Source of the DNA: Elusimicrobia bacterium RIFCSPLOWO2_12_FULL_59_9
Lineage (GTDB): Bacteria > Elusimicrobiota > Elusimicrobia > O2-12-FULL-59-9
Assembly (NCBI GenBank): GCA_001800185.1
Contig: MGUX01000066.1
Coordinates: 1 to 50,369 of the forward strand
Direction of reading: 5' to 3'
Length of the DNA stretch: 50,369 nt
Numbering within the stretch: the first letter of the stretch is position 1; each line of letters starts with the position of its first letter. The notes beneath the pieces are model-generated. The model made no database searches and was not told the DNA's origin. It saw nothing but the letters and a program-made list of their open reading frames with translations. This document shows positions 5,764-38,566 of this stretch, piece after piece. The position numbers and the translations under genes were made by a program.

Positions 5764-5779
5764 TGCAACGAAATTGCCA
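5764..5779 (-). promoter_or_regulatory. Sigma54 (-24/-12) promoter P1 for resB-ccsA-hemA-radical SAM
   Basis: The minus strand reads TGGCAATTTCGTTGCA, against the consensus TGGCAC-N5-TTGCW. The -12 element lies 25 nt upstream of the resB ATG. It is identical to the promoter at 17156-17171. Confidence 0.7.
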
Positions 5780-5905
5780 CGGGGGGAGTGGGGGAGGGAA
5801 AGTGGTCGAGTGGTCCAGTGGTCGAGTGCTAGGGGGAAGAGTGTCGGGTGATAAATTGGCAGGCATGGCTGCCGCTCCGTCATCGGATCATGGAGCGTTG
5901 CGGGA
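5764..5905 (-). repeat. Copy A of a shared promoter-upstream module: sigma54 promoter, AGTGGTC octamer repeats and a 21-bp near-palindrome
   Basis: It aligns by eye with 17156-17273. Shared parts are tgcaacgaaattgcca, then ggtcgagtggtccagtggtcgagtg, then ggcatggctgccgctccgt(c/g)atcggatcatggagcgttgcggga. The near-palindrome CTCCGTCATCGGATCATGGAG is at 5875-5895. Confidence 0.8.
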
Positions 5906-5915
5906 TTGGACCCGG

Positions 5916-7274
5916 TTAATGCGAAAGTTCTTGCTCCTTCACTTCCCAGACGGTGAGGATGGGCAACAACCGGGTGAATAATAGAAAGAGCAGGGCAAAG
6001 CCGGCGAACCAGGCCGCCGTAATGGACCACTCCACCCAACTGGGGGTGTAATGGGACATTCCCCAAGAAAGGTAGGGGCGCGCCCCGCTGGGAACGATAA
6101 TGCTGTACCTTTCCAGCCACATGCCGATATTGATGACTATGCAGACCCAGGCGAGGTTGCGGACGGTTCTCAGCGGCTTGATGGCCAAGACGGGAAGGGG
6201 AATTAAGAAACAGCAGGCGAACATGGTCCAGAAAAGCCAGGCATACTCGCCAAAAAACTTGGCGTTAAAGACCGCCATGTGGGCCGTCTCGCGGCCATAA
6301 AAGGTCGTGATAAACTCCAAAAAGGTGAAGTAAAACCAGAAACAGCACAGGGCCAGCAGAAACTTCCCGATCCTATCGAAATGGTCGTCGGTAAGATAGG
6401 CGTGCAGGCGGAAGAATCTCCGGATAGCCAGCATGGCCACGATGACGGTGGCAACTCCCGAATAGATGGCGCCCACGACGAAATAGGGTCCGATCACCGC
6501 GGTGTGCCAGCCGGGCTTGGTGGTCAAGCCGAAAACAAATGAGACGTTTGTATGGACTGAGATGACAAGGCAGAATAGGAAGACCGACATTCCTCCCAAG
6601 ATTTTGTGGAGCATCTTCCATTGGGCCTTGGTTCCGGTCCAGCCCAGGGCCAATTTCCGGTAAATAAACACCCTGGCGGGATGAACCACCGTGGAAAGCC
6701 TGTCCCGGCAGAGAGCGATGTCGGGGATGAGAGCGAGATAGAAGTAAAGACATGAGGTCACCAGATAGGTCGAAATGCAGACCACATCCCACAGTATGGG
6801 CGAGGTGAAGTGGGGATAGAGCAGGACGTTCAGCAGCCGCTCCGGCCGCCCAAGGTCCACGATCACGGAACTTGCGCCAAATGGCAGGGAAAACACCGTG
6901 ATGGCCTCCGCAGCGCGGGTGAACGGTCTGCGCCACTCGGTTTCCGTGATCCGCAATATGGAGGATATCAGGGTCCCCGCATGGGAGATGCCGATAAAGA
7001 AGACGAAATTGACCAAGTAGATTCCCCAGAAGACGGGAACGTTAAGTCCCGTTACCTTAAGTCCATTTTTGACCTGCCAAGCCCAGGCTGAGAGACCCCA
7101 AAGAAAAATGCAAGCCAGGACCGCTGCCGCCAGCCAAAAACCTTTTCCTGGTTTCTCAATCAGGGGCTTGAGCATTATAGATTCCAAATTCGCCTCGCTG
7201 GACTTCGCATCCGTCCAGCCCCCTTTCCAACCAGTCAAGGTGTAATCCACATCCCCACTGCCGGGTCGCATCAC
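5916..7274 (-). CDS. NrfD/PsrC-family integral membrane quinone-interacting subunit (ACIII ActC-like)
   Basis: 452 aa with about 10 TM helices. It has the motif PVFWGIYLVNFVFFIGISHAGTLIS, shared with the paralog at 21391-22959. Its start overlaps the stop of the FeS gene. Confidence 0.85.
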   Translation of the reverse strand: MMRPGSGDVDYTLTGWKGGWTDAKSSEANLESIMLKPLIEKPGKGFWLAAAVLACIFLWGLSAWAWQVKNGLKVTGLNVPVFWGIYLVNFVFFIGISHAGTLISSILRITETEWRRPFTRAAEAITVFSLPFGASSVIVDLGRPERLLNVLLYPHFTSPILWDVVCISTYLVTSCLYFYLALIPDIALCRDRLSTVVHPARVFIYRKLALGWTGTKAQWKMLHKILGGMSVFLFCLVISVHTNVSFVFGLTTKPGWHTAVIGPYFVVGAIYSGVATVIVAMLAIRRFFRLHAYLTDDHFDRIGKFLLALCCFWFYFTFLEFITTFYGRETAHMAVFNAKFFGEYAWLFWTMFACCFLIPLPVLAIKPLRTVRNLAWVCIVINIGMWLERYSIIVPSGARPYLSWGMSHYTPSWVEWSITAAWFAGFALLFLLFTRLLPILTVWEVKEQELSH

Positions 7275-8077
7275 CCCTCCCTCAAATAAATCACTTTCGG
7301 TTTTGTCCCAAGCTCCTCCAGGAACCTGTAAGCCCTGTGGCTGTCGGCAAGCCGGGAAACCTCGCTTTCTGGATTATTGAGATCCCCAAACGCGATGGCC
7401 TGGGCCGGACAGGCCGCCTTACAGGCAGGGACGTAGTCCCTTTCTTGGATCTCACGGCCCTCCTCCCGGGCCTTGTCCCTCGCTCTTTGAAGGCGCTGAT
7501 GACAGAACAGGCATTTCTCAACCACGCCTTTGTAACGGACTGAAACATCGGGGTTGAACGACTGGTTTGCTTCCGCGGGCCATTGGGGCTCGCCCCAATT
7601 GAAGAACTTGCAGGTGTAAGGGCAGGCATTGACGCAGTATCGGCAGCCGATGCAGCGGTCGTAAACTTGCCCCACAATCCCTTCCGTGTTCATGAACGTG
7701 GCCGACGTAGGACACACCCGGGTGCAAGGAGGGTCCTCGCACTGCTGGCAAGGCATGGGGATTAAACTCTGGCGGACATGGGAGCCCTCTCCTTCGGTCC
7801 TCGGAAGTATCTTCAGCCATCGGATGACTCTGCCCATGGCGGCTTCTTCGGGACTGCCCAGCATCTGGTTGTTTTCGACGGAACAGGCTACCACGCAACT
7901 CTGGCAACCCGTACAGCGATCCAGGTCGATCACCATGCCCCAGCGGTGCTTGCCCCGGGCCTGAACGATTTCCCCTTCGCTGCCGTCGGAGGCGAAGGCG
8001 CGTGGGACAAAAACCAGAAGCCCGCCGGCGAAAGCCGCCAGCCGCTTCAATAAATTTCTTCGATTCTCAGGCTCCAT
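7271..8077 (-). CDS. Tat-exported 4Fe-4S ferredoxin-type subunit (ActB2/PsrB/NrfC-like)
   Basis: 268 aa with the twin-arginine signal ENRRNLLKRLAAFAGG. Four Cys clusters are present: CTGCQSCVVAC, CQQCEDPPC, CIGCRYCVNACP and CLFC...CKAACP. Confidence 0.9.
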   Translation of the reverse strand: MEPENRRNLLKRLAAFAGGLLVFVPRAFASDGSEGEIVQARGKHRWGMVIDLDRCTGCQSCVVACSVENNQMLGSPEEAAMGRVIRWLKILPRTEGEGSHVRQSLIPMPCQQCEDPPCTRVCPTSATFMNTEGIVGQVYDRCIGCRYCVNACPYTCKFFNWGEPQWPAEANQSFNPDVSVRYKGVVEKCLFCHQRLQRARDKAREEGREIQERDYVPACKAACPAQAIAFGDLNNPESEVSRLADSHRAYRFLEELGTKPKVIYLREG

Positions 8078-10217
8078 AGACTCTCACCCAAGTGTCCTGC
8101 CAGAGCAGTTGGCCGGAGGGGTCCTGCCGCTTCTCAACGATCCTTGCCGGACTCGTTCCGATCCCCTGGGCATACCGGCCCATGGAGGTGTGACCCAAAC
8201 CCAGGGGAAGGGACACAGTATCCTGGCGCATGCCTTCATAATGCCGTGCCCGGGCCAAGATCTTGCCGGCGGGAGACTCAACCCATACCATCTGTCGATC
8301 CGAGATGCCAAGTCTTCTCGCGGCGGCAGGATGAATCTCAACCCACGTCTCCCACTGTTCGCCCAGATGTGCCCCCGCCAAGCTGTGCAGATACGGAAGA
8401 TGCGCGCCCTCTCCGAAGGAAAAGGCCAACGGGGTATGGACGTAAAGTCGCAGGGGAAAATTGGGATATTCATGCGCAAAGGGCTTTGGCTCAATATTTT
8501 TCGTCGAAAACCGGAGCTTCCTGGATTTTGTTTTAAGAGTTGACTTAATGTCGGCTTTCGCTGCCTCGTACTCCCACCAACCTCCTTCTCGCATCTGGCC
8601 CTCGGCCTGAGCTCTTTTGGCTGATTTTTCTAAGGCTTCCACGAAAGTGCTCCAAGGCAGCGCTTTGGAGACGGGCCCGCCCAGGGAATGGGCCAAGTTC
8701 AGGATGAAATCCCCGTGGTCTTCCGTATCGTAGAGCGGCCGGAGCACGGGAGGCGCGAAGCTGATCACGCCCTGTCCCAGAAGAGTTCTCGAAAAGCCGT
8801 ACTGCCAAGACTCCAGGCTGTGGTGGGGCGGAAGGACCAAGTCCGCCAGGCGGGATGATTCATCCAGATAGGGGGAGAAACTTGCGATGAACGGAATTTT
8901 CTCCAGAGCCTTTTCCCAAGAGATGGACTGAGGGGTCGAGAAAACAGGGTTGACCCGCTCCATCCAAAAGACCTCAATAGGACTTTTTGTGGAAGCCAGG
9001 ATGGCTTCCGGAACTTGGTGCAAGGACGGCGCCAGCGGAGGTTTTGGGGGCTCGGAGGAATAGGCGGCGGGCAAGGTGAGTTGGTACCTTTCCGCCTCGG
9101 TAGCCAGGACGCCGCGGCGGACCCCGATGGAGCCCAACAGCGCGTTGAGACTATGAACAGCCGTCTGGTTAAAAAGGCTGCCCCGATAGGTGATGGCGAG
9201 GGCCGGCTGGATGCGGGCCATCTCATGAGCCAACTCTGAAATCTTTTGAGTTTTGACGCTGGTAGCCTCGGCCACCTTTTGGGGAGAATATTCCTTAAGG
9301 ACCAGGGTCTTGAACTCCTCAAAACCCGATGTCCACTGGGAAACGAAGTTCCTGTCATAGAGGTTGTCTCGGACAAGCACGTGAGCGACTCCAAGCGCCA
9401 GGAGCCCTTCCGTATCGGGTCTTATGGAGATCCACTCGTCCGACTTGGCGGCCGTGGTTGAAAGTCTGGGCTCAACCTGGATGATCCGCACTCTCCTTTC
9501 AGGCCTGGCTCGGCGAAGCTCGCTGAAGGCCCTTTGAGCCTCGACCGGTGAAGGGAAGCTCTGCAGCCAGTCCCAGCCGAAAGACACGAGAAGGTTTGCG
9601 TTTTGTAGATCATAGAAGAGGCCCTCCGAAGAGCCGTGCATCATTTTGAAAGCGTCCAAAGGGGCCTCCGCCAACGGCCAGTTCCACTCCCAGAAGTTGG
9701 GCGTCCCGAAGAGCCGTGCAAAACGCTCTTGGATATCGTGCCTGATATCCCGGATGGGCGCCGCCAATACGGCCAACGCCTCCGGCGCATTGCGCCTTAA
9801 GAGGTCTGACAGCTTATCGTGGAGTATCTGATGCGCCTTACTCCAGGGGATTCTTTCCCACTGGCCGGAACCCCTTGGGCCCTTTTGGAGCAGGGGAAAA
9901 CGCAACCGGTCCGGATGGTAGAGGTCCTGAAGGATTGCTCCGCCCTTGGGGCAGTGCGTCCCGAGGCTTACGGGATGGCCGGACATCCCCGAGATTCCCA
10001 CAGCCTTGCCGTTCACGACGCGAACTTGAAGCATGCAGAGGGCCGGACAGAGTTTGCAGAGGGCGGGCTTGTAGGCCTCGGAGTCCAATTTGGGAAGAGG
10101 CTTTTCCTTGGGGGTCAACACCTTGGCTTTGAGGGCCTTGGGAAGGGCAAGCGCCGCGGTTAAAAAGCTTCCCCACTTCAAGAAGTTCTTTCTGGAAATT
10201 TCTATTTCCATAGACAT
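8067..10217 (-). CDS. Molybdopterin-oxidoreductase-like large subunit (ActB1/PsrA-like), Tat signal
   Basis: 716 aa with the signal SRKNFLKWGSFLTAALALP. The N-terminal FS0 motif CKLCPALC...HCPKG (C-x2-C-x3-C...C) is present. Whether a pterin cofactor is retained cannot be judged by eye. Confidence 0.85.
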   Translation of the reverse strand: MSMEIEISRKNFLKWGSFLTAALALPKALKAKVLTPKEKPLPKLDSEAYKPALCKLCPALCMLQVRVVNGKAVGISGMSGHPVSLGTHCPKGGAILQDLYHPDRLRFPLLQKGPRGSGQWERIPWSKAHQILHDKLSDLLRRNAPEALAVLAAPIRDIRHDIQERFARLFGTPNFWEWNWPLAEAPLDAFKMMHGSSEGLFYDLQNANLLVSFGWDWLQSFPSPVEAQRAFSELRRARPERRVRIIQVEPRLSTTAAKSDEWISIRPDTEGLLALGVAHVLVRDNLYDRNFVSQWTSGFEEFKTLVLKEYSPQKVAEATSVKTQKISELAHEMARIQPALAITYRGSLFNQTAVHSLNALLGSIGVRRGVLATEAERYQLTLPAAYSSEPPKPPLAPSLHQVPEAILASTKSPIEVFWMERVNPVFSTPQSISWEKALEKIPFIASFSPYLDESSRLADLVLPPHHSLESWQYGFSRTLLGQGVISFAPPVLRPLYDTEDHGDFILNLAHSLGGPVSKALPWSTFVEALEKSAKRAQAEGQMREGGWWEYEAAKADIKSTLKTKSRKLRFSTKNIEPKPFAHEYPNFPLRLYVHTPLAFSFGEGAHLPYLHSLAGAHLGEQWETWVEIHPAAARRLGISDRQMVWVESPAGKILARARHYEGMRQDTVSLPLGLGHTSMGRYAQGIGTSPARIVEKRQDPSGQLLWQDTWVRVYGA

Positions 10218-10234
10218 ATCTTCATTGACGGCGC

Positions 10235-10744
10235 CTACCTATGGCACGCCATACAATCCGTAGTTATTTTTTCGCGCCTATGGCAGGCCATGCATCCTTC
10301 CATTCGGAGAGGCACGGTCTGTCTCGCCACGGGCCTGTCCATCTTTCCGACATCCCCGTGGCAGACCTTGCAGTCCAGGCCGCCCGACCCCACATGGCGC
10401 TTGTGGGAGAACCGGACGTGCTGCGGAACCGTATAGACCTTTTTCCATGGGATTTCCCGCATCTGCCGGATGTATTCCTCCAAAGTTTTTGGGGTTTTGA
10501 GGCCGGGTTTGTCAGGTTGATGGCACAAGGCGCAGGTGGAGGTGTTCGGGATGCCGGCTTTCGCGGAGTCCTTAGCCCCCACGTGGCAGGCGTCGCAAGA
10601 GATACCGAAGTCCACGTGCTTTTTATGGGTGAAGGGCACTGGCTGTGAGACCTCCCACGTCCTGTATGCCGACAAACCTATCCCCGCAATTCCCGCAGCT
10701 ACGACCATCCAACCGAGCCAAGCGTGCAGCCACTCCCGCGGCAT
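10235..10744 (-). CDS. Membrane-anchored pentahaem cytochrome c (ACIII ActA-like, cytochrome c3/c7 family)
   Basis: 169 aa with one N-terminal TM helix. Five CxxCH motifs are present (CDACH, CALCH, CKVCH, CMACH, CMACH). It is a paralog of 25818-26318. Confidence 0.85.
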   Translation of the reverse strand: MPREWLHAWLGWMVVAAGIAGIGLSAYRTWEVSQPVPFTHKKHVDFGISCDACHVGAKDSAKAGIPNTSTCALCHQPDKPGLKTPKTLEEYIRQMREIPWKKVYTVPQHVRFSHKRHVGSGGLDCKVCHGDVGKMDRPVARQTVPLRMEGCMACHRREKITTDCMACHR

Positions 10745-10771
10745 CCAATCCTCCCCAAGCTACGCCGTTGC

Positions 10772-11677: not shown

Positions 11678-11697
11678 GTCATGCACCTCCTATTTTC

Positions 11698-12680: not shown

Positions 12681-12796
12681 GATGACTCCTAAATCGTGAC
12701 CGGCCCCGCGGAGCGGGCTTCTCCCTTTTCGGGATCGGGATGCGCGGATTGCGCACCGCGCCGGTCTTTATTAAGAACCGCTAATGCTCCGGCGGC

Positions 12797-14114: not shown

Positions 14115-14130
14115 GGCAACACATTGGCCA
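14115..14130 (-). promoter_or_regulatory. Sigma54 promoter P2 for the cyc2-like/ACIII-like operon
   Basis: The minus strand reads TGGCCAATGTGTTGCC. It lies 44 nt upstream of the ATG at 14071 and about 90 nt downstream of the response-regulator stop. Confidence 0.6.
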
Positions 14131-14218
14131 GGAATTTTTTGCCTCTGGCCGCGATAAAACGGATTTAACAGGCAAATGCTTCCAATTTCTTGGAAAGAGG
14201 TTTTAAGTTGTTGAAAAC

Positions 14219-15580
14219 CTAGCGGAAGGACTGGGGGTTGATTTGGTGCTTCTTGAGATACCAGTAGAGGTTGCTCAGGGGAAGTCTTGCCGTTTCTGCG
14301 GTGGTCTTGACGTTGCCGCCGTGCTTCTTGAGGAGGGATTCCAGGTACTCTTTCTCAAAACTTGCCCTCAAGGAGAAAAAGTTCTCCGTCCCCTTTTCCA
14401 TGCCGTTGGAGTTTGTCACCAAGAACTCCGGAAGATCCGTGGCTTTGAGGGTGTCTCCTTCGCAAACGACCACGGACTTTCTAAGGACGTTCTGGAGTTC
14501 CCGGATGTTTCCGGGCCAGCTATAATGCGCCAGAATCTCAACGGCCGAGTCATCCAGCCGCGTAACCGGCCGGCGCATTTCTTTGGCGATTTTGGGAAGG
14601 TAGTGCTGCGCCAGAAGGGAAACATCCTCAGCCCTCTCCCGAAGCGGGGGGAGGCGGAGGGAGATGACGTTGAGCCGGTAAAAGAGATCCTCCCGGAATC
14701 TGCCCGCCTTGATTTCTTGCTCGATATCCTTGTTGGTGGCCGTGACGATGCGGACATCGACCGAACGGATTTCGGCGCCGCCGACCCGGCGAAACTGCTT
14801 CTCCTGAAGCGCCCTCAGAAGCTTGGCCTGAAGGGAGCCGGGAAGTTCGCAGACCTCATCCAGAAAGAATGTGCCGCCATCGGCGAGTTCCATGAGCCCC
14901 TGAGCGGCCCGGGATGCGTCCGTGTAAGCGCCCTTTTCATGGCCAAAAAATTCGTTCTCAAGCAGATTTTCAGGAATCGCCCCGCAATCCACGGGGATGA
15001 AGCGGCCCCGCCTGCCGGAACGAAGATGCAGCCGCCGGGCGATCAGTTCCTTGCCGGTCCCGGACTCGCCCAAAATCAAAACATCCGCAGGAGTCGCGGC
15101 CACCCTGTCCGCCATATCCAAAACCCTGAGGATGGCCGGGCTCCGGCCGATGACCTCCACGGGCGCATATTCTCTGGACACATGGCGGGCCAAGAGCCGG
15201 TTCTCCTCCCCAAGTTGTTTCTCCCGCAAGGCGCGGCGGATCTTTGAGGCAAAATCCTCCGGGTGAAAGGGCTTAAGAAGATAATCCAAGGCTCCAGCCC
15301 GCAAAGCCTCCAGGGCCGAATCCAACTCCGGGAAGGCGGTGATCAAAAGAACGGGGAAAGCCGGGTCCATCTCCTTGGCGGCTTTCAGGAGCTCTATGCC
15401 GCTTAGTTTCGGCATCTTGATGTCCGTGACGAGCAGATCGAAGTTCTGCGCTTTGAGCTTTTCGAGAGCAACGGGCGAGCGATTCTCCAAAAACACCTGA
15501 TAGCCGTCCTTGGAAAGGGCGGCCGCGCAGGTGGACAACATGTCAGGCTCGTCGTCTACGATCAGCACTTTATATTTCAT
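14219..15580 (-). CDS. Sigma54-dependent response regulator (NtrC family bacterial enhancer-binding protein)
   Basis: 453 aa. It has a receiver domain (VLIVDDEPDM...TDIKMP). The AAA+ domain carries Walker A GESGTGKE and the sigma54-contact loop GHEKGAYTDA (a GAFTGA variant). A C-terminal HTH is also present. Confidence 0.95.
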   Translation of the reverse strand: MKYKVLIVDDEPDMLSTCAAALSKDGYQVFLENRSPVALEKLKAQNFDLLVTDIKMPKLSGIELLKAAKEMDPAFPVLLITAFPELDSALEALRAGALDYLLKPFHPEDFASKIRRALREKQLGEENRLLARHVSREYAPVEVIGRSPAILRVLDMADRVAATPADVLILGESGTGKELIARRLHLRSGRRGRFIPVDCGAIPENLLENEFFGHEKGAYTDASRAAQGLMELADGGTFFLDEVCELPGSLQAKLLRALQEKQFRRVGGAEIRSVDVRIVTATNKDIEQEIKAGRFREDLFYRLNVISLRLPPLRERAEDVSLLAQHYLPKIAKEMRRPVTRLDDSAVEILAHYSWPGNIRELQNVLRKSVVVCEGDTLKATDLPEFLVTNSNGMEKGTENFFSLRASFEKEYLESLLKKHGGNVKTTAETARLPLSNLYWYLKKHQINPQSFR

Positions 15581-17127
15581 GGCTTAATCGCTGTCCTCCA
15601 AGGAAACCGGACGCGGAAGCAGCTTCCCTTTCCGCGAGCGCTTTCGACCTTGATTTCCCCGCCGAGGGATCGGACGAGGGCCAGGCTGATGGAAAGGCCC
15701 AGGCCCGTGCCTTGCTCATGGGACTTCGTCGTGTAGAAGGGATCAAAGATCTTGTCCAGAAACTCCTCGGAAATTCCCGGGCCGGTGTCCGCGATGCTCG
15801 CTGATATCCACCCATCCGCGAGATGGCTCTCGACCTTGAGCGCACCCCCCCGCGGCATGGCATCGATGGCGTTGTTGAGGATATTTAGAAAGACATGCAG
15901 CAGGTCATTGCGCCGCGATTCGATTTTGGGCAGGTCTTCCGCCAAGGTCTCTTCCATGATGATGCCGGCCCGTGAAACTCGTCCCGACAAGATGTAAAGA
16001 GCCTCGGAAAGCACATCATTGAAGTCCGTGGGGGATTTTGGCTGGAGGTGGGGTTTGGAGAGGCTGAGCAGACTTCGGACGACGTTTCCCACGCGATCCG
16101 CCTGCCGGTCCACGATCTCCAGGGTTTCCTTGAGGAACTCCGGCGCCGCATATTCAGCGGCCCCCGACCGCGCCAGCTTCATGCGGGTGGAGATGATCCC
16201 GATGGGGTTATTGACCTCATGGGCGATATAGGCCACGAGTTGCCCCAGCGCGCCGAACTTTTCAGCCTGAAGGAGCCGCTGGTTGCTGGCGCGAAGACGC
16301 TCCATGATGGTCGTGGTAAAAAAGGTCGAGCCGCCCAGCAGGATTAAAAATGTGCCGGTCGTGCCCAACACGAACGGCAACTGATGAGACGCATGAGCGG
16401 CTTGCGCGCCATGCCCCTCATGGGGAAAAATAGCCAGGGTATAGTGGGGCAAGAGCCGGAAATACTCTCCGAAAGCGGCGAAAAGGAAGAACGCGGCGAT
16501 CAGCGCCGAGACCAGGTAGGCGTCTCTCTTGGGCAGGAGTATTCCCGCAATGATGACGTGGAATATATAGATGACAAAGAGGGGATTTTCGAGTCCCCCG
16601 GAGAAATGAAGCAGATGCGTGAGGATAACAAGGTCGGTGAGGATGAGCCACAGCATGCAGGACCGGAAGTTCCCGAACTCATTCTTCGTCCAATGGAAGA
16701 CCAGGCTTGTCAACCAGAGCGCCATGCATCCCATCCACAGATACGGCGTCACGGCGTCCGGAAGGAGGCGCAGCACGTGCTGCGAGACGAATATCGCGGC
16801 GGTCGTAACGGCGGCGACGATCCAGCGCATGCTGAGAAACCAGGCGATCTGCTCGCCGATCCCTTCCGAACCGACCAGAACGCCGACGTCTTGAGAGAAC
16901 AATCGTTGTGTCCGGCGGTTCAACCACCAAGCCGCTGCGAAGGTCCCAACAAGAGTGGCGCTGATTCCTCTTAAGATGTGGAGCCGGTGAAGCGTCTCCA
17001 TCTCCGCGCCTGGCAGCCCAAAGCGCTCGAGCAGTTCATAACCGCCGAATATCACGAGGATGACGGTGGCGATGATAGCTGGAAGCTGCCATCTGTCGTT
17101 AACGGCTGGTTCAACCATGTGTTCCAT
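15577..17127 (-). CDS. Sensor histidine kinase with a polytopic membrane sensor domain
   Basis: It has a HisKA H-box (IAHEVNNPIG) and HATPase N and G boxes (LNNAIDAM, GTGLGLSI), plus about 8 N-terminal TM helices. The start is set at ATG 17127 (MEHMVEP) because the ORF-track start at 17259 lies upstream of the sigma54 promoter. It overlaps the regulator start by 4 nt. Confidence 0.9.
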   Translation of the reverse strand: MEHMVEPAVNDRWQLPAIIATVILVIFGGYELLERFGLPGAEMETLHRLHILRGISATLVGTFAAAWWLNRRTQRLFSQDVGVLVGSEGIGEQIAWFLSMRWIVAAVTTAAIFVSQHVLRLLPDAVTPYLWMGCMALWLTSLVFHWTKNEFGNFRSCMLWLILTDLVILTHLLHFSGGLENPLFVIYIFHVIIAGILLPKRDAYLVSALIAAFFLFAAFGEYFRLLPHYTLAIFPHEGHGAQAAHASHQLPFVLGTTGTFLILLGGSTFFTTTIMERLRASNQRLLQAEKFGALGQLVAYIAHEVNNPIGIISTRMKLARSGAAEYAAPEFLKETLEIVDRQADRVGNVVRSLLSLSKPHLQPKSPTDFNDVLSEALYILSGRVSRAGIIMEETLAEDLPKIESRRNDLLHVFLNILNNAIDAMPRGGALKVESHLADGWISASIADTGPGISEEFLDKIFDPFYTTKSHEQGTGLGLSISLALVRSLGGEIKVESARGKGSCFRVRFPWRTAIKP

Positions 17128-17155: not shown

Positions 17156-17171
17156 TGCAACGAAATTGCCA
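17156..17171 (-). promoter_or_regulatory. Sigma54 promoter P3 for the kinase/regulator operon
   Basis: The minus strand reads TGGCAATTTCGTTGCA, identical to P1. It lies 29 nt upstream of the ATG at 17127. Confidence 0.7.
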
Positions 17172-17273
17172 TATAGGGGAAAGTGTTCGAGTGGTCCAGT
17201 GGTCGAGTGGTAGAGTGGTCCATTACGGCGGCATGGCTGCCGCTCCGTGATCGGATCATGGAGCGTTGCGGGA
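17156..17273 (-). repeat. Copy B of the shared promoter-upstream module
   Basis: It contains four tandem AGTGGTC-N octamers (17185-17216 region). The near-palindrome CTCCGTGATCGGATCATGGAG is at 17243-17263. It aligns with 5764-5905. Confidence 0.8.
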
Positions 17274-26318: not shown

Positions 26319-26355
26319 CTATTTCCTTTTGCCGCAAGATGAAGTTCATTCCCGC

Positions 26356-27303: not shown

Positions 27304-27319
27304 TGCAACGAATTGGCCA
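27304..27319 (-). promoter_or_regulatory. Sigma54 promoter P4 for the second SPFH/ACIII-like operon
   Basis: The minus strand reads TGGCCAATTCGTTGCA. It lies 55 nt upstream of ATG 27249 and 13 nt after the stop of the upstream gene. Confidence 0.65.
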
Positions 27320-29736: not shown

Positions 29737-29882
29737 TCAGACCTTCCCAATCGGCGAAATTATGGCCCGCGTAGGTTTCGGAAGAAAGCCCGCGATGGCA
29801 CTCGATGCAAAAATTAGCCCGAATTCCCTGGTTGGGGAATTCCCTGCGCAGCGCGCAGGACGGGCTTCGCCCCGGGCTGCCT

Positions 29883-29917
29883 CGTGCAGCGTTGTCGCAG
29901 AGCGACAACGCTGCACG
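29883..29917 (-). other. Perfect 16-bp-stem hairpin inside the roughly 340-nt leader of the Rieske operon
   Basis: CGTGCAGCGTTGTCGC-AGA-GCGACAACGCTGCACG, read directly. It is flanked by further palindromes at 29843-29859 and 29954-29976. Confidence 0.6.
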
Positions 29918-30086
29918 CCCTGCGGGGAATTCTGCACAATCGTGTACGTCGCATTGAGACGGCAATCGCGTCTCAACTGCAGAATTCAGGTTAGGCTTCT
30001 GTTGGGACCAACGGGGACGGGGCGCAACCGTCAAAAATCATAAAAAACATAAGTGATTTAAACATTTTGCTCTCTCGGATTGCAAG

Positions 30087-30102
30087 CGCAACATCATTGC
30101 CA
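30087..30102 (-). promoter_or_regulatory. Sigma54 promoter P5 upstream of the Rieske/cytochrome b operon
   Basis: The minus strand reads TGGCAATGATGTTGCG, 5 nt after the stop of the upstream cytochrome gene. A possible overlapping sigma70 pair (TTGCAA-N17-TTTAAA) also exists on the same strand. The distance to the Rieske ATG is about 350 nt. Confidence 0.5.
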
Positions 30103-31234: not shown

Positions 31235-31795
31235 TCAGACCACGATTTGGGAATGGCAGGAGACGCATCTGAGTCGTCTTCCGCGGCGGACGCCCAATAA
31301 GTGAGGTGTGTGGTCGAAATGGATGCCTTTTTCGCTGATGACTTTTCCCTGCAGGAGGCGGGTGGAGTGGCAGCCCGGGCGCAGGCAGGAAGAGTCTTCG
31401 ATCTCGGCGAAGGGTTTGGAAGAGTAGGTTCTCGTCACGTATTTGGCTACTTGGGAAAGCGCCTGGAATTTCTTCCATAGAAGCGTCCTCGGGGAGCCGG
31501 GCGGATAGTGGCATTCCACGCAGGCGACGAATTTGTGCTTGGACGTCGCCCAGGCGTTGTAATAGGGCTCCATGATGTGGCAGGAGCGGCAGAACCTCGG
31601 GCTTTCGGAATACTTCGCTAGTCCCGCCAGAACCACGACCGCGGCCAGAAAAGCGCTTCCCAAAAGCGCGAAGAAGCGCGGCCTTAAGTGGACGCTCCAT
31701 ATCTTCTCGGCCGGGACGTGGATGCCGGCGGCGTAGAGCCAGCGTCTCCACCAGGCGGCTCGTCCATAGAGCGGTTTTTCTTCCCCCTGAGTCAT
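31235..31795 (-). CDS. NapC/NirT/NrfH-family membrane-anchored tetrahaem quinol dehydrogenase-like protein
   Basis: 186 aa with an N-terminal TM helix (FFALLGSAFLAAVVVLAGL). It continues FCRSCHIMEPYYNAWATSKHKFVACVECH, then CLRPGCH (CX4CH) and CVSCH. It ends at a TGA that is in frame with the next ORF. Confidence 0.8.
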   Translation of the reverse strand: MTQGEEKPLYGRAAWWRRWLYAAGIHVPAEKIWSVHLRPRFFALLGSAFLAAVVVLAGLAKYSESPRFCRSCHIMEPYYNAWATSKHKFVACVECHYPPGSPRTLLWKKFQALSQVAKYVTRTYSSKPFAEIEDSSCLRPGCHSTRLLQGKVISEKGIHFDHTPHLLGVRRGRRLRCVSCHSQIVV

Positions 31796-33633: not shown

Positions 33634-33687
33634 GACGATTCATCACAGGCAACAAATCCGCCGTTACCGGACTGCGGACTCCTTTAT

Positions 33688-33703
33688 TGGCAAGGTTGTT
33701 GCA
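33688..33703 (+). promoter_or_regulatory. Sigma54 promoter P6 for the monohaem lipoprotein gene
   Basis: The plus strand reads TGGCAAGGTTGTTGCA, 46 nt upstream of the ATG at 33749. Confidence 0.6.
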
Positions 33704-33748: not shown

Positions 33749-34303
33749 ATGAAAATATTTTCCATAAAAAACGGATGGATAGGCGCTCTGACGGCGGCTG
33801 CGGGACTCAATCTGGCGAGCTGCAAGAAGCCTCCGCAGGCTTCGCCCGAGCCGCGCTTCAGCGCGGAGCAGTTTGAGGCGCGCTTTTATTACGATCTCGG
33901 AGCCGCGGAGATCGACATCAGCTCATATCCTAAGAAACAGCAGGACGGCTACGCCGTTTTCGCCAGGACGTGCTCTCAGTGCCACACTTTGGCGCGGCCC
34001 ATCAACGCTCCTTTCGCCGTTCGTAAAGATTGGGAAAGATACATCCAGCGCATGCATATCCGGACGGAGAGCCGGCCCGGCACCGGCATATCCAAAGCCG
34101 AAGCCGCCGTCGTCCTGGATTTTTTGGTTTACGATTCCAAGATTCGTAAACTGGATAACAAAAGCGAATTCGCGGCCAAGACGGAGGAACTGCGCCGGCT
34201 TTTTGATGAGGTGGTGAAGGAACGCGACAGGCTCAATCTGGGGAAAGTCGAAGGCAAGGCGCGCCCCCCCGGCCCGTATACGGGAGACAAGCCCCGGCCT
34301 TGA
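33749..34303 (+). CDS. Small monohaem cytochrome c lipoprotein, family copy 3
   Basis: ATG 33749 lies 8 nt after GGAG. The signal MKIFSIKNGWIGALTAAAGLNLASC carries the lipobox LASC. The core is YPKKQQDGYAVFARTCSQCHTLARPINAPF...FLVYDSKIRK. Confidence 0.75.
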   Translation: MKIFSIKNGWIGALTAAAGLNLASCKKPPQASPEPRFSAEQFEARFYYDLGAAEIDISSYPKKQQDGYAVFARTCSQCHTLARPINAPFAVRKDWERYIQRMHIRTESRPGTGISKAEAAVVLDFLVYDSKIRKLDNKSEFAAKTEELRRLFDEVVKERDRLNLGKVEGKARPPGPYTGDKPRP

Positions 34304-34304
34304 T

Positions 34305-34320
34305 TGGCCGTTTTGTTGCA
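34305..34320 (+). promoter_or_regulatory. Sigma54 promoter P7 for the decahaem/porin operon
   Basis: The plus strand reads TGGCCGTTTTGTTGCA, 63 nt upstream of ATG 34383. Confidence 0.65.
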
Positions 34321-37541: not shown

Positions 37542-37556
37542 GAAGGAGGGAAACGC

Positions 37557-38537
37557 ATGAAACGGTTTGTCGCCTTATGCTTGTTGTTTTGCGTTTCCGG
37601 CGTCCGCGCGGCCGACAGCGGCAAGGGCAAGGAAGTTTTCGGCGCCAAATGCGCCTCCTGCCACGGCAAAGAGGCCAAGGGCAATCTTGCCATGGCCAAG
37701 ATGTTCAAGCTGGAGCCGGCGGCTTTGGACTTGGCGGACGAGGCGACCTTGACCAAGACCGACGATGAGCTTATTGCGATCGTGACCAAGGGAAAAAACA
37801 AGATGCCGGTATTTGAGGGCAAGCTTTCCAAAAAGGAGATTGCTGATTTGATCGCCTACCTGCGCGGGCTGGGAGGAGGCAAGGCCAAGGCTGCCAAGAA
37901 AGCCGATGGAGGGCCCGGCGCCAAGTTGTACGAGGCCAAGTGCGCCTCCTGCCACGGCAAAGACGGCAAGGGCAAAGAGGCCATGGCCAAGATGTTCAAG
38001 CTGGAGCCTGCGGCTTTGAATTTGATAGACGAGCCCACCTTGGCCCAAACTGACGAGGAACTGATCGCCACTACGACTAAGGGAAAGAACAAGATGCCGG
38101 CCTTCGAGGGCAAGCTCTCGGGCGAGGAACTCGCCGTCCTGGCCGCCTACATGCGCGAGCTGGGCGGGGGTGTGCCCAAGGCCGCCGGCGCGGGCGACGT
38201 GGAGGCCGGCGCCAAGCTCTATGAGGCCAAATGCGCGTCCTGCCACGGCAAAGACGGCAAGGGCAAAGAGGCCATGGCCAAAATGTTCAAGCTGGAGTTG
38301 GCGGCCCTGGACCTGATTGACGAGGGGAGCCTTTCTAAAACCGACAAAGAGCTCTTCGACCTCACGGCCGAGGGCATCAACAAGATGCCGGGCTATAAGG
38401 ACAAAATGAAGGCCGAAGAGATAGACGCCGTCATCGCCTATATGCGCTCGCTGGCTCCGGCACCGGTACCGGCGGAGGCGGCGCCCGAGGAAGAGGCAAA
38501 ACCTCAAGAGGGCGGGCAGGAGCCGGAAGGCGACTAA
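37557..38537 (+). CDS. Periplasmic trihaem protein made of three tandem class I monohaem cytochrome c domains (MtoD-like position)
   Basis: 326 aa with a signal peptide. It has three copies of KCASCHGK(D/E)(G/A)KG...KGKNKMP...(I/A)AY(L/M)R. The C-terminal tail is rich in Pro, Glu and Ala. Confidence 0.85.
   Translation: MKRFVALCLLFCVSGVRAADSGKGKEVFGAKCASCHGKEAKGNLAMAKMFKLEPAALDLADEATLTKTDDELIAIVTKGKNKMPVFEGKLSKKEIADLIAYLRGLGGGKAKAAKKADGGPGAKLYEAKCASCHGKDGKGKEAMAKMFKLEPAALNLIDEPTLAQTDEELIATTTKGKNKMPAFEGKLSGEELAVLAAYMRELGGGVPKAAGAGDVEAGAKLYEAKCASCHGKDGKGKEAMAKMFKLELAALDLIDEGSLSKTDKELFDLTAEGINKMPGYKDKMKAEEIDAVIAYMRSLAPAPVPAEAAPEEEAKPQEGGQEPEGD
37626..38498 (+). repeat. Three tandem 291-bp (97-codon) repeat units inside the cytochrome c gene
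   Basis: The TGCGC(C/G)TCCTGCCAC haem-motif anchors lie at 37650, 37941 and 38232, exactly 291 bp apart. There are long identical runs, for example ggcaaagacggcaagggcaaagaggccatggccaa. Confidence 0.9.
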
Positions 38538-38550
38538 ATCGTCGGGGGCT

Positions 38551-38566
38551 TGGCAATTTTGTTGCA
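38551..38566 (+). promoter_or_regulatory. Sigma54 promoter P8 upstream of feoB
   Basis: The plus strand reads TGGCAATTTTGTTGCA, 14 nt after the cytochrome stop and 126 nt upstream of the feoB ATG. Confidence 0.6.

What the first reader, a model, noticed from the sequence alone, without database searches (positions are those of the whole stretch)
5764..38566. Eight near-identical sigma54 promoters head essentially every operon of the island
The -24/-12 elements, read directly, are:
- P1 TGGCAATTTCGTTGCA (5764-5779, minus strand);
- P2 TGGCCAATGTGTTGCC (14115-14130, minus);
- P3 TGGCAATTTCGTTGCA (17156-17171, minus);
- P4 TGGCCAATTCGTTGCA (27304-27319, minus);
- P5 TGGCAATGATGTTGCG (30087-30102, minus);
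- P6 TGGCAAGGTTGTTGCA (33688-33703, plus);
- P7 TGGCCGTTTTGTTGCA (34305-34320, plus);
- P8 TGGCAATTTTGTTGCA (38551-38566, plus).

All sit in the few intergenic gaps, in the right orientation, and 25-130 nt from a start codon (about 350 nt for P5). They share the pattern TGGC-N7-GTTGC.

Only one enhancer-binding protein gene (14219-15580) is in the window. Placing haem synthesis, cytochrome maturation, both outer-membrane conduits, the bc-type complex and feoB under sigma54 would be an unusual global wiring for respiration.
Basis: seen in the sequence. Interest (0 to 1): 0.7.

Follow-up and report, generated by a model that had tools for sequence, protein, structure and literature searches.

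The report
Sigma-54 promoters drive Elusimicrobia iron-respiration island
Eight real sigma-54-type promoter sequences sit in front of nearly every operon of a cytochrome-rich, probable iron-oxidation gene island in an uncultured groundwater Elusimicrobia genome: a familiar kind of switch wired to an unfamiliar set of genes.

Summary
TGGC-N6-GTTGC occurs 8 times against 0.64 expected. All 8 lie in the 4.25% of the window that is non-coding, and all point at the downstream gene. Eight of the ten gaps of at least 79 nt hold exactly one site. P1 and P3 are identical because about 110 nt were duplicated.

The sigma-54 reading is well supported:
- The motif is conserved at orthologous promoters in Elusimicrobia relatives whose other intergenic DNA has diverged.
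- A histidine kinase and enhancer-binding protein pair sits in the island, itself behind P3.
- P2 has a conserved upstream palindrome.
- Six relatives encode a compact (about 360 aa) sigma-54 homologue next to the same genes.

Two things are not shown: that this MAG encodes sigma-54 (the phylum's type species lacks it), and where transcription starts.

The window is a whole contig of MAG RIFCSPLOWO2_12_FULL_59_9. The island encodes a Cyc2-type cytochrome-porin, an MtrAB/PioAB-like conduit, two Qrc-like complexes, a bc complex, cytochrome maturation, haem synthesis and feoB.

Sigma-54 control of respiratory cytochromes has precedent in Geobacter, so this is a new member of a known kind. The promoter density and gene content are notable.

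The parts
5765..5779 (-). P1, -24/-12 element TGGCAATTTCGTTGC(A). It lies 136 nt after the stop codon of the upstream NrfD-like gene and 25 nt before ATG 5739 of resB. It would drive resB-ccsA-hemA-ahbD-like (5739 down to 1647).
14116..14130 (-). P2, TGGCCAATGTGTTGC(C). It lies 88 nt after the EBP stop codon and 44 nt before ATG 14071, which has a GGAGG Shine-Dalgarno. It would drive the cyc2-like gene, a 142-aa gene of unknown function, cyt c, SPFH and the Qrc-like genes (c7, Mo-pterin, FeS, NrfD), 14071 down to 5916.
   Evidence: Conserved in L004, L005, L010, L012, L013, L014, L018, L023, L024 and L163.
17157..17171 (-). P3, TGGCAATTTCGTTGC(A), the same 16-mer as P1. It lies 29 nt before ATG 17127 of the histidine kinase and would drive the kinase-EBP operon, giving a predicted autoregulatory loop.
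   Evidence: Equivalent sites precede the kinase gene in L004 (6851), L005 (6327) and L006 (2431).
27305..27319 (-). P4, TGGCCAATTCGTTGC(A). It lies 12 nt after the upstream stop codon and 55 nt before ATG 27249, which has an AGGAGG Shine-Dalgarno. It would drive SPFH, the second Qrc-like set, multihaem cytochromes and a third FeS/NrfD pair (27249 down to 17284).
30088..30102 (-). P5, TGGCAATGATGTTGC(G). It lies 4 nt after the stop codon of the multihaem gene and 351 nt before the Rieske ATG at 29736. It would drive Rieske, cyt b and the cyt b(C)-tri-cyt c gene.
33688..33702 (+). P6, TGGCAAGGTTGTTGC(A), in the divergent gap, 46 nt before ATG 33749 of a 184-aa CxxCH lipoprotein-like gene.
   Evidence: An equivalent site precedes the homologous gene in L014 (18272).
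34305..34319 (+). P7, TGGCCGTTTTGTTGC(A). It lies 1 nt after the upstream stop codon and 63 nt before the mtrA-like ATG at 34383. It would drive a DmsE/MtrA-family decahaem cytochrome, an MtrB/PioB porin and a tri-cyt c gene.
   Evidence: Conserved before mtrA in L163, L166 and L167.
38551..38565 (+). P8, TGGCAATTTTGTTGC(A). It lies 13 nt after the upstream stop codon and 126 nt before the feoB ATG at 38692. It would drive feoB, dtxR/feoA and a hemerythrin gene.
33649..33663 (-). Weak candidate ninth site, CGGCGGATTTGTTGC, facing the cbc-type operon (31792-33633). It lies only about 15 nt before the ATG at 33633, and its score is in the background range.
   Evidence: (13.7 bits, against at least 23.3 for the eight sites)
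14219..15580 (-). Enhancer-binding protein with REC, AAA+ sigma-54-interaction domain and C-terminal HTH. Walker A reads GESGTGKE. The sigma-54 contact loop reads GAYTDA.
15577..17127 (-). Membrane histidine kinase with a multi-TM region, HisKA and HATPase domains. It is AtoS/ZraS-like, with a weak full-length resemblance to RegB/PrrB redox kinases.
14180..14216 (.). Candidate enhancer (UAS) for P2. It consists of the palindrome TTCCAAGAAATTGGAA (14180-14195) plus an upstream half-site TTTTCAA (14211-14216), centred about 60-85 nt upstream of the -24 GG. It is conserved in L005 and L004 and partly in L023.
   Evidence: (the exact palindrome is unique in the window)
5788..5905 (.). Upstream element shared by P1 and P3. 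It contains a 44-nt block with the inverted repeat CGCTCC-N13-GGAGCG (5862-5905; 98% identical to 17230-17273) and a run of 8-nt tandem repeats, CCACTSGA (5788-5840).
17177..17273 (.). The P3 copy of the same shared upstream element: repeats at 17177-17229 and the 44-nt block at 17230-17273.
29737..30076 (-). Predicted 340-nt leader of the P5 transcript. It is unusually structured and includes a 16-bp perfect hairpin. It contains a 24-codon hydrophobic mini-ORF (29991-30065).
   Evidence: (MFE -137.7 kcal/mol, z = -3.95); no Rfam family matches
38649..38681 (+). A 15-bp GC-rich hairpin in the P8 leader, 10 nt upstream of the feoB ATG and followed by UUCCUUAUU. It could be an attenuator, or the terminator of the preceding operon.

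Best explanation
The eight elements are sigma-54-family (-24/-12) promoters. They place almost the whole respiratory and iron-handling island of this Elusimicrobia genome under activator-dependent transcription.

Proposed mechanism:
- RNA polymerase carrying a sigma-54-type factor binds YGGC-N6-GTTGC as a closed complex. It fires only when an AAA+ enhancer-binding protein hydrolyses ATP.
- The local membrane histidine kinase phosphorylates the local REC-AAA+-HTH activator.
- The activator binds the conserved TTCCAAG-N3-TTGGAA site just downstream of its own gene and opens P2, which drives the cyc2-like gene and the first Qrc-like operon.
- The kinase-activator operon is itself behind P3, so the circuit is probably self-amplifying.
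- P1 shares its upstream element with P3, so cytochrome maturation and haem synthesis would be co-induced with the regulators.
- The other promoters (P4-P8) start 1-14 nt after the preceding stop codon, with no terminator between genes. They most likely act as activator-gated internal boosters within co-directional gene arrays. Their enhancers would lie inside upstream coding DNA and may be served by this or by other activators.

Shown: the motif, its statistics, its placement, its conservation, the regulator genes, and sigma-54 homologues in relatives.

Inferred: which activator serves which promoter, the signal sensed (probably redox or iron), the transcription start sites, and the presence of a sigma-54 gene in this MAG.
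For: Statistics and placement:
- 8 hits against 0.64 expected.
- 8 of 8 sites lie in the 4.25% non-coding DNA and are co-oriented with the next gene; 8 of 10 large gaps are occupied.
- The +1 spacing control gives only intragenic background.
- Sigma-70-like and terminator-like predictions are at background and absent from the gaps.

Conservation:
- Across 37 sites in the window and 14 related Elusimicrobia loci, the consensus is YGGC-M-R-W-W-W-Y-GTTGC.
- Position 10 was not selected for in the search, yet it is a pyrimidine in 37 of 37 sites.
- Orthologous promoters are kept before cyc2-like genes (10 loci), mtrA (L163, L166, L167), the kinase gene (L004, L005, L006), resB (L020) and hemA (L166/L167, as an AGGC variant).
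- The alignment of the EBP-to-cyc2 gap shows only two conserved blocks: the promoter and an upstream palindrome.

Regulators:
- The EBP has a Sigma54_activat domain at E = 4e-65, with REC and AAA-lid domains.
- Its GAYTDA/GAFTDA loop is a family trait shared by orthologues and by about 17 EBPs next to Cbc-type cytochromes in other phyla.
- F-to-Y in this loop is functional in TouR (PMC3162934).

Sigma factor:
- Compact sigma-54 homologues lie next to cyc2, the kinase and the EBP in L006, L012, L013, L014, L018 and L020.
- They match PF04552 at 55.8 bits against a cutoff of 22.8.
- The top 26 PDB fold matches are all sigma-54 chains.

Precedent:
- Geobacter RpoN regulon (PMC2725144).
- BccR-CbcBA.
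Against: - No sigma-54 gene is in the window, and none could be retrieved for this MAG.
- The activator's sigma-54 contact loop is non-canonical (GAYTDA). The G-to-D change at position 5 has not been tested in anything I read.
- No upstream motif is shared by all eight promoters. The TTCCAA palindrome is unique to P2.
- Four promoters have no non-coding room for an enhancer.
- The -22/-21 'AC' of the canonical consensus is replaced by AA, CA or CG.
- Some relatives with the same gene clusters (L164, L165) lack the motif entirely, so the wiring is not universal in the clade.
- No transcription start data exist.
Confidence: 0.82

Rival explanations
1. The elements are -24/-12 promoters, but they are read by a specialised compact (about 360 aa) sigma-54-family paralogue dedicated to this regulon rather than by a housekeeping-type RpoN. 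In relatives, this small sigma is encoded with the kinase, the activator and cyc2 as a self-contained cassette. The invariant Y-G before TTGC would be its specificity signature.
For: - Compact sigma-54 homologues sit beside cyc2, the kinase and the EBP in six related loci. In L006 the order is kinase, sigma-54-like, EBP. In L012 the gene is immediately upstream of the cyc2 promoter.
- The family is coherent: 271 representative clusters at E <= 1e-30, nearly all 340-390 aa.
- Fold matches are to sigma-54 only.
- It is far below the NCBIfam rpoN cutoff, 65 bits against 277.
- A tblastn search with E. coli RpoN did not detect these genes.
- All loci that hold it use the YGTTGC form of the motif.
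Against: - It is not present in the window, nor in the closest syntenic relatives L004 and L005.
- It may simply be the only, naturally short, sigma-54 of these organisms. Aquifex RpoN is also short; PDB entry 5ui5 was its best sequence match.
- The structure model is of moderate quality (pLDDT 64, TM 0.3-0.4).
- No evidence shows whether a second, canonical rpoN exists in these genomes.
Confidence: 0.25
2. The 15-mers are operator sites for a conventional DNA-binding regulator (a repressor or activator working with sigma-70 polymerase) that co-ordinates the island. Their resemblance to sigma-54 promoters would be coincidental.
For: - One shared motif in front of many functionally related operons is also what a regulon operator looks like.
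- Related clusters in L164 and L165 are decorated instead with a palindromic TATGAC-N5-GTCATA operator-like site. This shows that classical regulators do control these genes in some lineages.
Against: - The motif is not palindromic and is not a direct repeat.
- It is strictly orientation-locked to the downstream gene, 8 of 8 here and 29 of 29 in relatives.
- It matches the GG-N10-GC sigma-54 geometry exactly and fails at +1 spacing.
- No sigma-70-type promoter accompanies it in the gaps.
- A sigma-54 activator, and sigma-54 homologues in relatives, are encoded alongside.
Confidence: 0.05
3. The motif acts at the RNA level, as an intercistronic processing, stability or translation signal within long polycistronic transcripts. 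Most copies sit just after a stop codon in co-directional gene arrays with no terminators.
For: - P4, P5, P7 and P8 begin 1-14 nt after the preceding stop codon.
- No intrinsic terminators lie in these gaps.
- The motif's orientation follows the genes, as an RNA element's would.
Against: - The 15-mer has no self-complementarity.
- The distance to the start codon varies from 25 to 351 nt.
- P6 lies in a divergent gap where there is no upstream co-directional transcript.
- No Rfam family matches.
- The sequence matches a well-defined DNA promoter class, and the cognate regulators are encoded nearby.
Confidence: 0.04

Closest known systems
Sigma-54 (RpoN)-dependent -24/-12 promoters, consensus mrNrYTGGCACG-N4-TTGCWNNw (Barrios et al. 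1999, as quoted in PMC2725144)
   Same: - Invariant GG and GC exactly 10 nt apart.
- TGGC and TTGC(A) cores, with 8-11 of 12 consensus positions matched.
- Located upstream of genes in the sense orientation.
- An AAA+ enhancer-binding protein is encoded nearby.
   Different: - The -22/-21 'AC' is AA, CA or CG.
- There is a lineage-specific invariant pyrimidine-G immediately before TTGC.
- Several promoters abut the previous stop codon, so their enhancers must be intragenic.
- The cognate sigma factor has not been seen in this MAG.
Geobacter sulfurreducens RpoN regulon and the BccR-CbcBA module (PMC2725144; 10.1101/2021.04.15.440034)
   Same: - Sigma-54 controls anaerobic respiratory and extracellular-electron-transfer cytochromes.
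- A REC-AAA+-HTH response regulator encoded next to a b/c-type cytochrome operon activates it from a -24/-12 promoter.
- The window also holds a Cbc-type multihaem-cyt b fusion, and an EBP whose GAF/YTDA loop is shared by EBPs next to Cbc homologues in other phyla.
   Different: - Geobacter has about 110 predicted sites in the non-coding DNA of its whole genome (PMC2725144); from memory that genome is about 3.8 Mb, so about 1 site per 35 kb. Here there are 8 in 33 kb.
- In this window the Cbc-type operon is the one unit without a convincing site.
- The controlled genes include Cyc2-type and MtrAB/PioAB-type outer-membrane conduits, cytochrome c maturation, haem synthesis and feoB.
- The phylum is different (Elusimicrobia).
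Cyc2 and MtoAB/PioAB iron-oxidation pathways of neutrophilic Fe(II) oxidisers (10.1101/228056; PMC8357290)
   Same: - The P2-driven protein carries the diagnostic AXPXFAR[Q/K][T/Y]...CXXCH...PXL motif, is 424 aa long and has a beta-barrel-type C-terminus.
- P7 drives a DmsE/MtrA-family decahaem cytochrome and an MtrB/PioB porin.
- Cyc2 has already been reported in an Elusimicrobiota MAG. That MAG is my locus L014.
   Different: - Among the 8-10 top-ranked papers that each full-text search listed for combinations of Cyc2, MtoA or iron oxidation with sigma-54 terms, none linked these genes to sigma-54. Only two papers hold both 'Cyc2' and 'RpoN', with one or two mentions of RpoN each; I did not open them.
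- The function of these proteins in Elusimicrobia (oxidation or reduction) is untested.
Short sigma-54 proteins such as Aquifex aeolicus RpoN (PDB 5ui5)
   Same: The compact Elusimicrobia proteins share the C-terminal DNA-binding domain and RpoN-box-like motif (SRRTVNAVR compared with ARRTVAKYR). They have a Region-I-like N-terminus and an overall sigma-54 fold.
   Different: - They are about 360 aa.
- No Pfam hit to the activator-interacting (PF00309) or core-binding (PF04963) domains at E <= 0.01.
- 65 bits against the NCBIfam rpoN cutoff of 277.
- They are encoded inside kinase/EBP/cyc2 clusters rather than at the usual rpoN locus.
- They are seen only in relatives, not in this window.

Membership tests
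Sigma-54-dependent (-24/-12) promoter | Conserved GG and GC dinucleotides separated by exactly 10 nt, within TGGC...TTGC cores | tested here: met
   All eight sites are TGGC-N7-TTGC. The +1 spacing control gives only intragenic background.
Sigma-54-dependent (-24/-12) promoter | Located upstream of a gene, in sense orientation, in non-coding DNA, and more often than chance | tested here: met
   8 of 8 sites lie in the 4.25% non-coding DNA and are co-oriented, 25-351 nt from a start codon. 8 hits against 0.64 expected.
Sigma-54-dependent (-24/-12) promoter | Genome encodes sigma-54 (RpoN) | not testable with these tools
   - No sigma-54 gene is in the window. Only this contig of the MAG is available.
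- A tblastn search and a homologue search did not retrieve a copy from this MAG.
- Sigma-54 homologues are present next to the same module in six related Elusimicrobia loci.
- E. minutum lacks sigma-54 (PMC3162934).
Sigma-54-dependent (-24/-12) promoter | Transcription starts about 12 nt downstream of the GC and depends on an enhancer-binding protein | not testable with these tools
   No transcript data are available. This needs 5'-end mapping or reporter assays.
Sigma-54-dependent (-24/-12) promoter | Upstream activator sequence (enhancer) about 80-150 nt upstream | tested here: inconclusive
   - P2 has a conserved palindrome at about -60 to -85 from the GG.
- P1 and P3 share a 44-nt block with an inverted repeat.
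- No common motif was found for P4-P8, whose upstream DNA is coding.
Sigma-54-dependent (-24/-12) promoter | Evolutionary conservation of the element at orthologous promoters | tested here: met
   29 further sites were found in 14 related loci before cyc2-like, mtrA, kinase, resB, unk187-like, response-regulator and FNR/CRP-like genes. The surrounding intergenic DNA is not conserved.
Bacterial enhancer-binding protein (NtrC class) | AAA+ sigma-54 interaction domain with Walker A/B, plus a regulatory domain and a C-terminal HTH | tested here: met
   - PF00158 at E = 4e-65, with REC (PF00072) and AAA-lid domains.
- Walker A reads GESGTGKE, and a Fis-type HTH-like C-terminus is visible by eye.
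- The best NCBIfam matches are AtoC, NtrC and ZraR, all below their equivalog cutoffs.
Bacterial enhancer-binding protein (NtrC class) | Intact GAFTGA loop that contacts sigma-54 | tested here: inconclusive
   - The loop reads GAYTDA.
- Y at position 3 occurs in the functional activator TouR (PMC3162934).
- D at position 5 is conserved across this EBP family: GAYTDA or GAFTDA in 4 Elusimicrobia orthologues and about 17 EBPs beside Cbc-type cytochromes. Its functional status was not found in what I read.
Cyc2 fused cytochrome-porin (for the P2-driven gene 12797-14071) | Signal peptide, a single CXXCH preceded by AXPXFAR[Q/K][T/Y] and followed by PXL, length of at least 365 aa, and a beta-barrel porin domain | tested here: met
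   - The sequence reads AVPVFARKY-GIS-CSQCH-TAF-PVL, matched against the motif given in 10.1101/228056.
- It is 424 aa, has a hydrophobic N-terminus and ends in ...VEVGF.
- The barrel itself was not modelled. The family has no Pfam or NCBIfam hit.
Canonical RpoN (for the compact sigma-54-like proteins in relatives) | Full-length match to rpoN models, covering Region I (AID), the core-binding domain, and the DNA-binding domain with the RpoN box | tested here: not met
   - Only the DNA-binding domain matches: PF04552 at 55.8 bits.
- TIGR02395 scores 65 bits against a cutoff of 277, covering residues 226-353 only.
- The fold search still finds only sigma-54 chains over most of the length.
- They are therefore sigma-54 homologues, but not members of the curated rpoN equivalog.

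The most novel reading that the evidence does not exclude
A clade of groundwater and mine-drainage Elusimicrobia runs its whole Fe(II)-oxidation and extracellular-electron-transfer regulon through a self-contained transcription cassette. The regulon would include Cyc2, the MtrAB-like conduit, Qrc-like and bc complexes, cytochrome maturation, haem synthesis and iron uptake. The cassette would consist of:
- a previously uncharacterised compact (about 360 aa) sigma-54-family sigma factor;
- a membrane kinase;
- an activator with a variant GAY/FTDA contact loop;
- promoters of the form YGGC-N6-GTTGC, which this sigma recognises.

The window would be one instance of this system, with the sigma gene elsewhere in the genome.
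Probability: 0.25. Interest if true: 0.65.

Novelty: new member of a known kind. Interest (0 to 1): 0.45.

Why it matters
If the promoters work as predicted, the island is an all-or-none, signal-gated respiratory programme. Sigma-54 promoters are essentially silent without their activator. The outer-membrane iron conduits, quinone-linked complexes, cytochrome maturation, haem supply and iron uptake would then be switched on together.

That gives a concrete handle on a question with few answers: how Cyc2- and Mto-type iron-oxidation genes are regulated. It applies to an uncultured phylum whose only well-studied members ferment and lack sigma-54.

It also supplies testable parts for heterologous reconstitution: eight short promoters, one kinase-activator pair, and a candidate enhancer.

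Finally, it points to a sizeable, unnamed family of compact sigma-54 homologues that are genomically tied to these genes.

Tried and rejected
1. This is an off-by-one, not an absent motif.
2. A GG-N10-GC-only scan was uninformative: 878 hits against 922 expected.
3. A position weight matrix trained on the eight sites overfits this genome's AT-rich spacer and missed obvious orthologous sites in relatives. I replaced it with core-pattern scans.
4. One regex had the wrong spacing. I kept it as a negative control.
5. The metagenome scan with the Cbc-type cytochrome returned mostly non-Elusimicrobia loci showing only background-type hits. L083 (65% identity) is not syntenic. These loci served as a negative control, not as footprints for P4-P8.
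6. Contigs L001-L003 are the same population (at least 99.8% identical), so they carry no comparative signal and show no copy-number variation in the 8-nt repeats.
7. No upstream motif is common to all eight promoters. No conserved enhancer was found upstream of the kinase promoters across genomes.
8. The window has no Rfam family at gathering thresholds.
The compact homologues were found only by chance, through a downstream-gene survey.
10. The last homologue search, seeded with the L006 sigma-54-like protein, returned only three proteins and none from this MAG.
11. The ninth site proposed for the cbc operon was not accepted, because its score is in the background range.

Full report
**1. The observation**

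The summary pattern is mis-stated. TGGC-N7-GTTGC gives no hit. The listed sequences are TGGC-N6-GTTGC, which is TGGC-N7-TTGC, the canonical sigma-54 geometry with GG and GC 10 nt apart.

- TGGC-N6-GTTGC occurs 8 times against 0.64 +/- 0.85 expected. No shuffle out of 100 exceeded 4.
- Dropping the G adds two intragenic hits: 10 against 2.8 expected.
- One-mismatch variants are at background: 22 against 17.5.
- Shifting the spacing by one base gives four hits, all inside genes, against 9.5 expected.

**2. Placement**

I built a gene map from Pfam and NCBIfam and curated the start codons. Only 4.25% of the window is non-coding. All eight sites are in it, and all point at the next gene. Under uniform placement the probability is about 4e-14.

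Of the ten gaps of at least 79 nt, eight contain exactly one site. The two empty gaps are an intra-operon gap (12681-12796) and a gap outside the island (41986-42248).

The distance from the GC to the start codon is 25, 44, 29, 55, 351, 46, 63 and 126 nt for P1 to P8. Five downstream starts have clear Shine-Dalgarno sequences.

None of the gaps holds a sigma-70-consensus promoter or an intrinsic-terminator-like site. Both classes are at background in the region.

P1 and P3 are the same 16-mer because about 110 nt upstream of them is duplicated. The duplicated stretch has a 44-nt block (98% identical between the copies) and a run of 8-nt CCACTSGA repeats. There are therefore seven independent sequences.

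A possible ninth site faces the cbc-type operon (33649-33663, CGGC...). It scores in the background range and I do not count it.

**3. What the island is**

The window is a complete 50,369-nt contig of the Rifle groundwater MAG 'Elusimicrobia bacterium RIFCSPLOWO2_12_FULL_59_9'. The predicted operons are:

| Promoter | Genes driven |
|---|---|
| P1 | resB, ccsA, hemA, an AhbD-like radical-SAM gene |
| P2 | a 424-aa protein, a small gene of unknown function, cyt c, SPFH, then Qrc-like c7, QrcB-like, FeS and NrfD genes |
| P3 | histidine kinase and enhancer-binding protein |
| P4 | SPFH, a second Qrc-like set, multihaem cytochromes, a third FeS/NrfD pair |
| P5 | Rieske, cyt b, cyt b(C)-tri-cyt c |
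| P6 | a CxxCH lipoprotein-like gene |
| P7 | DmsE/MtrA-family decahaem cytochrome, MtrB/PioB porin, tri-cyt c |
| P8 | feoB, dtxR/feoA, hemerythrin |

The 424-aa protein behind P2 reads AVPVFARKY-GIS-CSQCH-TAF-PVL and ends in ...VEVGF. That is the diagnostic Cyc2 fused cytochrome-porin signature, AXPXFAR[Q/K][T/Y]...CXXCH...PXL, described in 10.1101/228056. One of its orthologues (L014) comes from the Elusimicrobiota 'MAG 13' already reported to encode Cyc2 (PMC8357290).

The island looks like an Fe(II)-oxidation or extracellular-electron-transfer module.

**4. Conservation**

Using the Cyc2-like protein and the MtrB-like porin as anchors, I fetched related loci. In Elusimicrobia at 31-73% protein identity, the same element precedes:

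- the cyc2-like gene in ten loci;
- mtrA in L163, L166 and L167;
- the kinase gene in L004, L005 and L006;
- resB in L020;
- hemA in L166 and L167 (an AGGC variant);
- the homologue of the P6 gene in L014;
- response-regulator and FNR/CRP-family genes.

In L163, four clean sites all fall in annotated intergenic gaps and point downstream.

The alignment of the EBP-to-cyc2 gap from four genomes shows two conserved blocks only: the -24/-12 element and an upstream TTYCAA ... TTTCCAAG-N3/4-TTGGAA block.

Thirty-seven sites give the consensus YGGC-M-R-W-W-W-Y-GTTGC. The pyrimidine at position 10 was not part of any search pattern, yet it is found in 37 of 37 sites.

Loci from other phyla, fetched through the Cbc-type cytochrome, show only background-type hits with GC-rich spacers inside genes.

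Two Elusimicrobia loci with the same mtrAB-bc-cbc cluster (L164, L165) lack the motif. They carry TATGAC-N5-GTCATA palindromes in their gaps instead. The sigma-54 wiring is therefore a trait of part of the clade, not a necessity of the genes.

**5. Regulators**

The window has one enhancer-binding protein. It has a REC domain, an AAA+ sigma-54-interaction domain (E = 4e-65), a lid domain, an intact Walker A and an HTH-like C-terminus.

Its sigma-54 contact loop is GAYTDA instead of GAFTGA. Orthologues read GAYTDA or GAFTDA. About 17 EBPs at a fixed position next to Cbc-type cytochromes in other phyla read GAFTDA. The variant is therefore a conserved family trait rather than decay.

F-to-Y occurs in the functional activator TouR (PMC3162934). 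I found no data on the G-to-D change.

The kinase is a multi-pass membrane protein of the AtoS/ZraS type. It has a weak full-length resemblance to RegB/PrrB redox kinases, 115 bits against a cutoff of 350.

Both regulator genes are behind P3, which predicts positive autoregulation. P1 shares P3's upstream element, which predicts co-induction of cytochrome maturation and haem synthesis.

The exact TTCCAA-N4-TTGGAA palindrome is unique to P2, and no motif is common to all eight upstream regions. The local activator can therefore be assigned with some confidence only to P2. P4, P5, P7 and P8 start 1-14 nt after the preceding stop codon, so any enhancer for them lies in coding DNA.

**6. The sigma factor**

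This is the weak point. The window has no rpoN. [quoted passage not shown] A tblastn search with E. coli RpoN found nothing in 2.4 Mb of fetched loci.

While surveying the genes downstream of motif copies, I found a 338-360-aa protein in L013 and L014 with these features:

- a Sigma54_DBD match of 55.8 bits against a cutoff of 22.8;
- a Region-I-like N-terminus;
- an RpoN-box-like SRRTVNAVR.

Copies lie next to cyc2, the kinase and the EBP in L012, L013, L014, L018, L020 and L006. In L006 the order is kinase, sigma-54-like, EBP.

The protein is far below the curated rpoN threshold, 65 against 277 bits. An AlphaFold model (pLDDT 64) matches only sigma-54 chains among its top 26 PDB hits, over most of its length.

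An exhaustive HMMER search finds 271 representative clusters at E <= 1e-30, nearly all 340-390 aa. IMG calls some of them 'specialized sigma54-like protein'.

The clade therefore does encode sigma-54-family factors, tightly linked to this gene set. Whether this MAG has one, and whether it is a dedicated paralogue or simply a short RpoN, remains open.

**7. Comparison with what is known**

The elements meet the sequence-level definition of sigma-54 promoters. The in vivo criteria (rpoN, transcription starts, activator dependence) could not be tested.

Functionally, the closest precedent is Geobacter. There, RpoN is an essential global regulator with about 110 predicted non-coding sites, consensus TTGGCACGGTTTTTGCT, and its regulon includes cytochromes for Fe(III) reduction (PMC2725144). 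The REC-AAA+-HTH regulator BccR is required to induce the cbcBA bc-cytochrome operon from a sigma-54 promoter, and similar clusters are noted in other phyla (10.1101/2021.04.15.440034).

Against that background, 'sigma-54 controls respiration' is not new. The following are new here:

- The phylum.
- The density: 8 sites in 33 kb. My rough figure for Geobacter is about 1 per 35 kb, using a genome size of about 3.8 Mb from memory.
- The near-complete coverage of a multi-operon island.
- The gene content: Cyc2-type and Mtr/Pio-type conduits, Qrc-like and bc complexes, CcsAB, HemA/AhbD and FeoB.

The groundwater-Elusimicrobia genomics paper contains no occurrence of 'sigma', 'iron' or 'MtrB' in its main text (10.1101/765248). 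Only two open-access papers mention both Cyc2 and RpoN, with one or two mentions of RpoN each; I did not open them.

**8. Verdict**

The sigma-54 interpretation is supported at about 0.8 confidence. It is a new member of a known kind, of moderate interest.

The more novel possibility is a dedicated compact sigma-54, kinase and activator cassette for iron respiration. It is suggested by the relatives but not shown for this genome.

Noticed in passing
L014:12365-13447 (-); also L013:12404-13471, L012:8745-9776, L006:4121-5263, L020:3-968, L018:2-685: A family of compact (about 340-390 aa) sigma-54 homologues is encoded next to cyc2, kinase and EBP genes in Elusimicrobia relatives.
- Only the DNA-binding domain matches Pfam or NCBIfam, yet the fold search hits only sigma-54 chains.
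- There are 271 representative clusters at E <= 1e-30.
- The family is unnamed apart from IMG's 'specialized sigma54-like protein'.
- The L014 copy is itself preceded by TGGTCATAATGTTGCT.
   Followed up: partly
window 12797-14071 (-): The uncharacterised 424-aa protein behind P2 carries the diagnostic Cyc2 fused cytochrome-porin motif (AVPVFARKY...CSQCH...PVL) and a beta-barrel-type C-terminal Phe. It has no Pfam or NCBIfam hit. This makes the island a probable Fe(II)-oxidation or extracellular-electron-transfer module.
   Followed up: partly
L164 and L165 intergenic gaps (for example L165 after 721, 4213, 10944 and 13251); L006 about 2380-2400: Elusimicrobia loci with the same mtrAB-bc-cbc cluster lack the sigma-54 motif. 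They carry a palindrome, TATGAC-N5-GTCATA, in at least six gaps, which suggests control by a different (CRP/FNR-like?) regulator. A similar CTATGAT-N4-ATCATAG lies just upstream of the kinase promoter in L006.
   Followed up: no
L163:567 and L020:15785: A sigma-54-type site precedes an FNR/CRP-family regulator gene that has an N-terminal cysteine cluster. This hints at a sigma-54 to FNR-like regulatory cascade in relatives.
   Followed up: partly
window 14219-15580; L087-L145 at about 16.8-17.6 kb of each locus: The EBP contact loop GAY/FTDA, with D at position 5, is conserved in Elusimicrobia orthologues. It also occurs in about 17 EBPs at a fixed distance from Cbc-type multihaem/cyt b genes in other phyla. 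This would be a BccR-like family trait.
   Followed up: partly
window 29737-30076 (-): The 340-nt leader between P5 and the Rieske gene folds far better than shuffles (z = -3.95) and includes a 16-bp perfect hairpin. It holds a 24-codon hydrophobic mini-ORF (29991-30065). No Rfam family matches.
   Followed up: partly
window 38649-38681 (+): A 15-bp GC hairpin followed by a U-rich stretch lies between P8 and the feoB start codon. It could be an attenuator, or the terminator of the mtrAB operon placed downstream of P8.
   Followed up: no
window 5788-5840 and 17177-17229: Four to five tandem 8-nt repeats (CCACTCGA/CCACTGGA) sit between the 44-nt block shared by P1 and P3 and the -24 element. The 8-nt period is odd for a protein-binding array. 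Copy number would set the phasing between enhancer and promoter.
   Followed up: partly
window 5916-11686 compared with 21391-27249: The SPFH, c7, QrcB-like, FeS and NrfD module is present twice (about 71-74% DNA identity in repeat families D2, D3 and D6). Each copy is behind its own sigma-54-type promoter (P2 and P4).
   Followed up: no
window 37644-38516 (+): The gene after mtrB is three tandem 291-nt cytochrome c domain repeats (64-75% identity).
   Followed up: no
window 33749-34303 (+) and 20918-21394 (-): Two paralogous small CxxCH proteins share the motif ...DFL(V/T)YDSK(I/V)RK. They have homologues behind sigma-54-type sites in L014. No family is assigned.
   Followed up: no
window 48225-48346 (+): Two 49-nt direct repeats (84% identity, 73 nt apart) lie at the junction of the HdrA/MvhD-like and CCG-domain genes.
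   Followed up: no
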